DNA from: Octopus vulgaris
Lineage: Eukaryota
Assembly (NCBI GenBank): GCA_951406725.2
Contig: OX597833.1
Coordinates: 49,290,001-49,354,000 of the forward strand
DNA: 64,000 nt
Reading direction: 5' to 3'
Shown here one piece after another: positions 50,207 to 50,432 of the stretch (positions within the stretch are counted from its first letter, which is position 1; each line of letters begins with the position of its first letter). Made by a program: the position numbers and the translations under genes. The notes beneath the pieces were generated by a model, which was given only the letters and a program-made list of their open reading frames with translations, made no database searches and was not told the origin of the DNA.

Positions 50207-50429
50207 CTTTATTTAAAGCAGCAGAAAATTCAACAAAATCTGTTACTCTGAGTTTCTCGTTGCCGTTCATCAGACATTCTAGCAAAAACTGTCTGATGAA
50301 CGGCAACGAGAAACTCAGAGTAACAGATTTTGTTGAATTTTCTGCTGCTTTAAATAAAGCATATTACTCTACCACTGGTATTTGAGTACTCTTTTTTTCC
50401 ACCTTGTTTCACATTTATGTGTTTACTCC

Positions 50430-50432
<3 letters not shown>
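50207..50432 (+). mobile_element. Penelope-type pLTR with perfect inverted 5' duplication and hammerhead motif, inside (TA)n
   Basis: 50207-50276 is the exact reverse complement of 50290-50359; hammerhead ctgt-CTGATGA-acggcaacga-GAAA-ctcagag-TA-acag at 50289-50326. Confidence 0.75.

What the first reader, a model, noticed from the sequence alone, without database searches (positions are those of the whole stretch)
50207..50432. Hammerhead ribozyme motif locked in a perfect 70-bp fold-back inside a (TA)n tract
Seen: 50289-50326 has the full type I hammerhead layout (stem I ctgt/acag, CTGATGA, short stem II around GCAA, GAAA, ctc-a-gag stem III, GTA cleavage triplet). The 70 nt upstream are its exact reverse complement (13-nt loop), including a stem II mismatch that the homolog at 5103-5152 lacks (acg-ggaa-cgt), so the inversion was copied from this very copy. 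Known: Penelope-like elements carry minimal, often dimeric hammerheads in their pLTRs and leave inverted 5' pLTR copies on insertion. Inferred: a non-autonomous, TA-targeting ribozyme retroelement whose transcript would be either self-cleaving or a perfect dsRNA hairpin (ADAR or Dicer substrate).
Basis: partly seen in the sequence, partly recalled or inferred. Interest (0 to 1): 0.7.

Follow-up and report, generated by a model that had tools for sequence, protein, structure and literature searches.

The report
Back-to-back Penelope retrotransposon end stub
This hairpin is two short end pieces of a common, protein-coding Penelope-type jumping gene joined back to back in a TA repeat, one of about 1,500 such stubs in this genome; it likely arose in a single insertion that copied one RNA from two fixed start points, and its imperfect ribozyme motif is predicted to be buried in the hairpin.

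Summary
The fold-back and the hammerhead layout are real. The object is not a non-autonomous element. It is the smallest insertion product of a young, autonomous Hydra-clade Penelope-like element (PLE): 3.36-kb unit, 727-codon open frame with RT and C-terminal endonuclease motifs, inserting in (TA)n. The A·A stem II mismatch is the state of the whole young subfamily (3,877 core matches), not a private mark. Of 1,527 small fold-backs, 1,460 pair one short end with one tailed end. The longer arm mostly stops at or just inside one initiator-like site. Both arms share subfamily variants (61 of 61), and 0 of 17 long inverted insertions contain a stub arm. Best reading: both strands of a TA break are primed from the two fixed RT start sites of one RNA, run off near its 5' end, and join by microhomology. 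Inverted PLE ends with a one-sided tail are published, and this scan already reported the same pattern and idea for other families in this and other genomes. No expression, editing or cleavage was shown.

The parts
50172..50206 (.). Left (TA)n target tract
50207..50276 (-). Inverted arm: element positions +15 to +84, ending at the short (no-tail) 3' end
50275..50276 (.). 2-nt microhomology shared by both arms at the junction
50276..50431 (+). Sense arm: pLTR positions +1 to +156; +1 is an initiator-like A, inferred to be the RNA 5' end
   Evidence: 98% identical to L036 pLTR; clustering of 5' ends
50289..50326 (+). Minimal type I hammerhead motif: A10.1·A11.1 mismatch, 2-bp stem II with GNRA loop, palindromic stem III with 1-nt loop, predicted cut after 50322
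50360..50431 (+). One-sided 72-nt tail between the two fixed 3' end points
50432..50469 (.). Right (TA)n target tract
5009..5170 (-). Older solo stub of the same lineage (C4 core, A-U at 10.1-11.1, G12 lost), TA-flanked

Best explanation
The locus is a head-to-head pair of pLTR stubs of an autonomous Hydra-clade Penelope-like retrotransposon, likely made in one event in which the element's enzyme cut both strands of a (TA)n tract and primed reverse transcription on one RNA from its two fixed start points. Shown: parent element, target, fixed 3' ends at +84 and +156, the one-of-each rule, the 5' boundary near +1, shared variants in both arms, microhomology at the joint. Inferred: an uncut sense RNA starting at +1 carries the two start sites near its 5' end and again near its 3' end. 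Priming at the 5' pair gives 84- and 156-nt run-off cDNAs (stubs like this one); priming at the 3' pair gives long inverted insertions. The two cDNA 3' ends anneal by 0-6 nt and are repaired. The stub is likely dead: it has no ORF, and read-through RNA is predicted to fold as a 70-bp hairpin that excludes the hammerhead.
For: Parent: the same motif flanks a 727-codon frame in L035/L036, unit 3,352-3,365 nt, with Hydra motifs (against PMC8557442 section 11). Ends: small fold-backs are short+tail 1,460, short+short 48, tail+tail 19; 763 mixed expected if independent. Long pairs: 16 of 17 short+tail, 1 short+eroded. 5' boundary: 652 fold-backs with spacer 4-34 against 104 with spacer 35-64, of whose 50 listed loci 21 (hand count) pass +1 by 5 nt or more. 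The longer arm ends at 0 to +5 in 59 of 85 scorable loci (of 101) and never upstream. 308 arms start exactly at +1, and 6 of 30 fetched are solo stubs starting there straight from (TA)n. One template: 61 of 61 young loci agree between arms at a site that is 44:78 polymorphic, 33 expected; 0 of 17 long pairs contain an arm that stops at +1, about 14 expected by hand calculation if arms chose their start copy independently. Not DNA snap-back: the tailless arm reaches further 5' in 36 of 85 (tail arm 30, equal 19), 23 insertions have non-overlapping arms, and 11 of 85 are loop-free palindromes joined at a 4-nt self-complementary word. In vitro precedent: anole PAc cuts and extends both strands, starts RT at two internal sites bounding the tail, is predicted to be a dimer and does not need ribozyme cleavage (PMC11167929).
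Against: No RNA 5' end was mapped; only contigs of runs guessed to be RNA were available. There is no pile-up of tail arms stopping at the short start site (23 just before, 35 just after), so the tail-primed RT would have to displace the other cDNA or act in turn. [quoted passage not shown] Arm concordance could also come from variants being active at different times, or from conversion between arms. The 100 fetched stubs were selected by a pattern that limits spacer length, come from contigs C1-C2 only, and may include a few segmental duplicates (L095/L096, L167/L168), which were not removed. Short+short is probably overcounted, since one C-to-T change makes a tail arm look short. The test for a cap-derived G at -1 was inconclusive.
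Confidence: 0.62

Rival explanations
1. Self-priming: an antisense RNA (or a first cDNA) folds back at its 3' end and copies itself, and the endonuclease resolves the hairpin at two staggered sites, giving the one-sided tail (Arkhipova et al. 2013, PMC3846280).
For: It explains identical arms, the absence of mixed long/stub pairs, the absence of a collision peak and short microhomology at the turn. It is the published proposal for head-to-head PLE palindromes.
Against: Loop-free palindromes cannot self-prime with templated bases (11 of 85). The DNA snap-back form needs the tail arm to be the longer one, but the short arm is longer in 36 of 85. Solo stubs begin at +1 with no fold-back. The antisense form needs RNA 3' ends at a sense initiator-like site. 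PAc starts RT on sense RNA at the two tail boundaries.
Confidence: 0.2
2. The stubs are themselves a non-autonomous family: an internal promoter in +1 to +156 makes short RNAs holding both RT start sites, and the full-length element's protein copies them in trans.
For: Stubs are very numerous: 14 stub pairs against 17 long pairs among the first 100 core matches. Contig depth over the pLTR 5' part was 440-9,200 against about 0-190 over the ORF in four runs guessed to be RNA; the tool warns that this is no measure of expression.
Against: The two main young stub haplotypes differ only at a site that also varies among full-length copies. Junctions are diverse, so the fold-back is not copied as a unit. 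Run-off from the parent RNA explains the numbers.
Confidence: 0.12
3. Assembly artefact, or a palindromic DNA transposon (MITE).
For: The arms are perfectly identical, and the window has an assembly gap with a flanking duplication elsewhere.
Against: 1,460 loci have the same asymmetric build. Arms of older copies have diverged (39 mismatches in 4,167 sites in the young set; 32 of 61 perfect). The centre varies while the ends are fixed and unequal, and the parent encodes an RT.
Confidence: 0.03

Closest known systems
Hydra clade of C-terminal-endonuclease PLEs (Craig et al. 2021, PMC8557442; abstract, passages, section 11 and passages of supplementary files S1, S2 and alignments seen), e.g. Hydra-2_Amil and Hydra-1_Obim
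   Same: RWK, DKT, CxCx5C linker, no CCHH, CxxC and CxH, (TA)n target, hammerhead in the pLTR. Stems I and III, the 1-nt loop III and the cut site match Hydra-2_aMil letter for letter apart from the loop base. Several Hydra magnipapillata families also mispair 10.1-11.1, as U·U.
   Different: A separate family from Hydra-1_Obim: different hammerhead and protein, compared by eye. The unit is 3.36 kb with a long 3' UTR; stem II is cut to 2 bp with an A·A mispair; 9 of 11 loci have F in place of the second linker Cys.
Inverted 5'-truncated pLTR with optional one-sided tail of EN+ PLEs (PMC3846280 passages; PMC8557442 Fig. 2 legend)
   Same: Head-to-head arms, tail on one end, palindromic or microhomology junction.
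   Different: The tail is about 72 nt, not 30-40. The one-of-each rule is near strict here (96%), and a stub class ends at a sharp 5' boundary.
Anole Poseidon PAc (Frangieh et al. 2024, PMC11167929; parts 1-2 of 4 and passages read)
   Same: Two fixed RT start sites just downstream of the hammerhead bounding the tail, AT-rich target, uncut RNA used as template.
   Different: Different clade; that paper does not explain inverted insertions or strand asymmetry in the parts read.
Minimal PLE hammerheads (Cervera and de la Pena 2014, PMC4209133; parts 1-2 of 4 read) and non-LTR retrozymes (bioRxiv 10.64898/2026.07.22.740005; part 1 of 5 read)
   Same: Type I topology, palindromic unstable stem III, dual motifs on opposite strands noted as truncated PLEs, low activity even as dimers.
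   Different: It lacks the conserved G10.1-C11.1 pair and long helix II, and it is not a head-to-tail array, so not a retrozyme.

Membership tests
Hydra-clade PLE (parent element) | Single ORF with RT, flanked by direct pLTRs | tested here: met
   727-codon frame with YRDD between two pLTR copies in L035 and L036; 1,760 homologues
Hydra-clade PLE (parent element) | C-terminal GIY-YIG endonuclease | tested here: inconclusive
   The C-terminal region lines up by eye with the Hydra alignment in the supplement, but Pfam, NCBIfam and PDB sequence searches were blank and the structure job did not finish
Hydra-clade PLE (parent element) | RWK motif, and DKG changed to DKT | tested here: met
   RWK at 53, DKT at 129, no DKG; present in 89 and 113 of 120 homologues
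Hydra-clade PLE (parent element) | CxCx5C linker, no CCHH, CxxC and CxH near the end | tested here: met
   All present in P0001; the second linker Cys is F in 9 of 11 loci that hold the linker
Hydra-clade PLE (parent element) | Insertion into (TA)n | tested here: met
   99 of 101 stubs have a TA tract at the short end (the search pattern itself required 5 TA-type bases); tails also end in TA
Hydra-clade PLE (parent element) | Generally shorter than 3 kb | tested here: not met
   Unit 3,352-3,365 nt; a tendency in the paper, not a strict criterion
Hydra-clade PLE (parent element) | Phylogenetic placement of the RT | not tested
   No named reference proteins were available as files
Type I hammerhead ribozyme | Core C3-A9, G12-A14, A15.1-U16.1, H17 and stem I | tested here: met
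Type I hammerhead ribozyme | Paired 10.1-11.1 closing stem II | tested here: not met
   A·A in the young subfamily. Older subfamilies pair it or have A·G but carry C4 (4,391 matches); 61 copies have both canonical. PMC3088659 passages treat such mispairs as disqualifying unless activity is measured, and report U4C as much less active
Type I hammerhead ribozyme | Stem III formed as a monomer or dimer | tested here: inconclusive
   Monomer pair probability about 0; the palindromic strand self-pairs at -7.4 kcal/mol; inside the fold-back all core pairs are below 1e-15
Type I hammerhead ribozyme | Self-cleavage | not testable with these tools
   Genomic arms read through the cut site, so their templates were uncut
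Non-LTR retrozyme | Head-to-tail tandem units, each with a hammerhead, no ORF in the family | tested here: not met
   Head-to-head pair; the family has an ORF
MITE / palindromic DNA transposon | Fixed symmetric inverted termini and a constant interior copied as a unit | tested here: not met
   Unequal ends and variable centre

The most novel reading that the evidence does not exclude
These stubs record the general PLE integration reaction: one enzyme dimer on one sense RNA primes the two strands of a break from two different fixed start sites, so every insertion is born as an inverted pair with a tail on one side, and 5'-proximal priming leaves strong-stop-like stubs that mark the transcription start. 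This would replace the published antisense self-priming model and make these elements a built-in source of thousands of perfect hairpins in a genome with heavy RNA editing.
Probability: 0.5. Interest if true: 0.55.

Novelty: new member of a known kind. Interest (0 to 1): 0.3.

Why it matters
The locus itself is ordinary retrotransposon debris. The family is useful because it is young (arm-to-arm divergence 0.94%), has an intact open frame, and gives sharp numbers on an open point: how PLE tandem/inverted structures form, which Craig et al. name as unresolved. It yields direct in vitro predictions. It also shows that a PLE can spread to thousands of copies while no major subfamily keeps a fully canonical hammerhead, in line with PAc not needing cleavage. 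PMC5625713 (passages) links octopus hyper-editing to abundant near-perfect dsRNA and notes heavily edited Penelope in a lizard, so such stubs are plausible but untested ADAR substrates.

Tried and rejected
A DNA search of the own genome returned nothing because common words are skipped; pattern searches worked. Rfam: no hammerhead model hit. Neptune clade, my first guess, was rejected on motifs. A 29-codon frame starting in the hammerhead core with an intron was considered: the ATG is absent from the oldest subfamily and no splice joint appeared in four contig sets, so it was dropped, not excluded. Expression: no run on record as RNA was listed; contigs of four runs guessed to be RNA cover the element but cannot show start, strand or level; no RNA-versus-DNA comparison at +1 was obtained. 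Collision peak at the short start site: not seen. Cap-derived G at -1: G in 38 of 100 listed (hand count); of 15 G cases among 30 fetched, 10 are templated by the other arm and 5 are ambiguous. The TA-flank test was miscoded (0 of 101) and was redone. One search's alignment-based arm ends overshoot in some loci, so one search's strict walk (85 of 101 scorable; older subfamilies differ from the young reference) is the one cited. Pfam, NCBIfam and PDB sequence searches for P0001 or its alignment were blank; the structure job never finished. Literature searches for twin priming or two-strand priming in PLEs found no relevant paper in the held library, which lacks most subscription journals; Lunse et al. 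on dimeric PLE hammerheads was not held, and bioRxiv supplements were not seen. The host is taken as likely an octopus from recalled repeat content and the scan's earlier notes; no call determined it.

Full report
Observation. The window holds an exact 70-bp inverted repeat, 50207-50276 and 50290-50359, with a 13-nt spacer, between two (TA)n tracts. A generic scan for type I hammerhead layouts on both strands found one hit in 64 kb, at 50289-50326. Rfam found no hammerhead. As RNA the region folds into one hairpin of -128 kcal/mol. A 79-82% identical older copy lies at 5009-5170 on the minus strand.

Parent element. The 34-nt core pattern has 3,877 exact matches in the 2.8-Gb genome and none for the reversed control. 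I fetched 19 loci where cores lie 0.5-10 kb apart. In L035 and L036 the motif lies both upstream and downstream of a 727-codon open frame, 3,352-3,365 nt apart. The window's sense arm is 98% identical to that end repeat. The protein has YRDD, RWK, DKT, a CxCx5C linker, no CCHH, and terminal CxxC and CxH motifs. These are the features Craig et al. list for the Hydra clade, with (TA)n targeting and canonical hammerheads (PMC8557442 section 11). Their supplement lists a coral Hydra element with the same stems I and III. Their octopus family Hydra-1_Obim is a different family by eye. Profile searches did not detect the endonuclease fold, and the structure job did not finish, so that domain rests on motif comparison.

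What the fold-back is. Numbering from an initiator-like A (+1 = 50276; motif name recalled), insertions end at +84 (short) or +156 (tail), followed by TA. The window copy has a short arm +15 to +84 and a tail arm 0 to +156, overlapping by 2 nt. There are 652 fold-backs with a 4-34 nt spacer in the young subfamily alone. Across subfamilies, small fold-backs are short+tail in 1,460 cases, short+short in 48 and tail+tail in 19, against 763 mixed expected by chance. Of 17 long inverted insertions (19 fetched; L035 left out because only one outer end was fetched, L049 because it is a duplicated segment), 16 are short+tail and one is short+eroded. Junctions vary, and the window's junction is unique among 101. 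So the fold-back is rebuilt at each insertion and is not copied as a unit.

The 5' boundary. Among the first 100 core matches, opposite-strand pairs are either 43-75 nt apart (14) or at least 482 nt apart (18 with L049); none lie between (hand count). In 85 scorable stubs of 101 the longer arm ends at 0 to +5 in 59 and never further upstream. Because that set was selected for short spacers, I checked the next window: 104 matches, of whose 50 listed loci 21 pass +1 clearly (hand count). 308 arms begin exactly at +1, and 6 of 30 fetched are solo stubs starting there directly from (TA)n. I infer an RNA 5' end at +1. This was not mapped.

One template, two primers. Within the young subfamily both arms agree at a 44:78 polymorphic site in 61 of 61 loci (33 expected), and at all nine subfamily sites agreement far exceeds chance. 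None of the 17 long pairs has an arm stopping at +1, so both arms use the same copy of the start sites. Simple cDNA snap-back fails, because the tailless arm is the longer in 36 of 85 loci and 23 insertions have arms that do not overlap. Loop-free palindromes (11 of 85) fit two cDNA ends annealing. Against this, tail arms do not pile up at +84 (23 against 35). The anole PAc enzyme cuts and extends both strands and starts at two sites bounding the tail (PMC11167929). The published rival is antisense self-priming (PMC3846280), which I cannot exclude.

The ribozyme. The A·A mispair at 10.1-11.1 is in all 100 listed young copies. Older subfamilies have C at core position 4 (4,391 matches). Only 61 copies are canonical at both. 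Both changes are described as harmful (PMC3088659 passages), although U·U mispairs occur in published Hydra-clade motifs. Stem III is predicted not to form in a monomer but can pair between two copies; inside the fold-back all hammerhead pairs have negligible probability. Inserted arms read through the cut site, so their templates were uncut.

Expression and host effect. No run on record as RNA was listed. Contigs from four runs guessed to be RNA cover the element, with much higher depth over the pLTR 5' part, but they cannot show expression, and no splice joint was seen. Editing or Dicer use is untested.

Novelty. Inverted 5'-truncated copies with a one-sided tail, TA targeting and minimal hammerheads are published for PLEs. 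My searches of the held library found no paper deriving them from two-strand priming. I had written that reading down before opening the scan's notes; the notes show the same pattern and idea for other families in this and other genomes, and none for this sequence. Verdict: a new member of a known kind with useful numbers; interest 0.3.

Noticed in passing
window 25793-26674 (+): Intron-free 293-codon frame matching FANCL domains 2, 3 and the C-terminal RING (E down to 1e-34); likely a retrocopy.
   Followed up: partly
window 46793-46897 (-): U6 snRNA copy, 88.9 bits, with a divergent 5' stem.
   Followed up: no
window 27171-33461 and 33562-39696: About 6.3-kb tandem duplication (97-99% identical) on either side of a 100-N gap at 33462-33561; possibly an assembly artefact.
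   Followed up: no
window 53668-53841 (-): Fragment of another PLE endonuclease region, 41% identical to P0001.
   Followed up: no
window about 60515-60695: A second, decayed (TA)n-flanked fold-back of unrelated sequence.
   Followed up: no
L036:994-8598: Mirror-image pair of two near-identical full-length elements (99.8%), one with an intact frame, ending short on one side and tailed on the other.
   Followed up: partly
L031-L043: 9 of 11 copies have F in place of the second Cys of the CxCx5C linker.
   Followed up: no
genome-wide: The hammerhead core appears to have changed stepwise between subfamilies: C4 with A-U, C4 with A·G, then U4 with A·A; no large subfamily is canonical at both positions.
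   Followed up: partly
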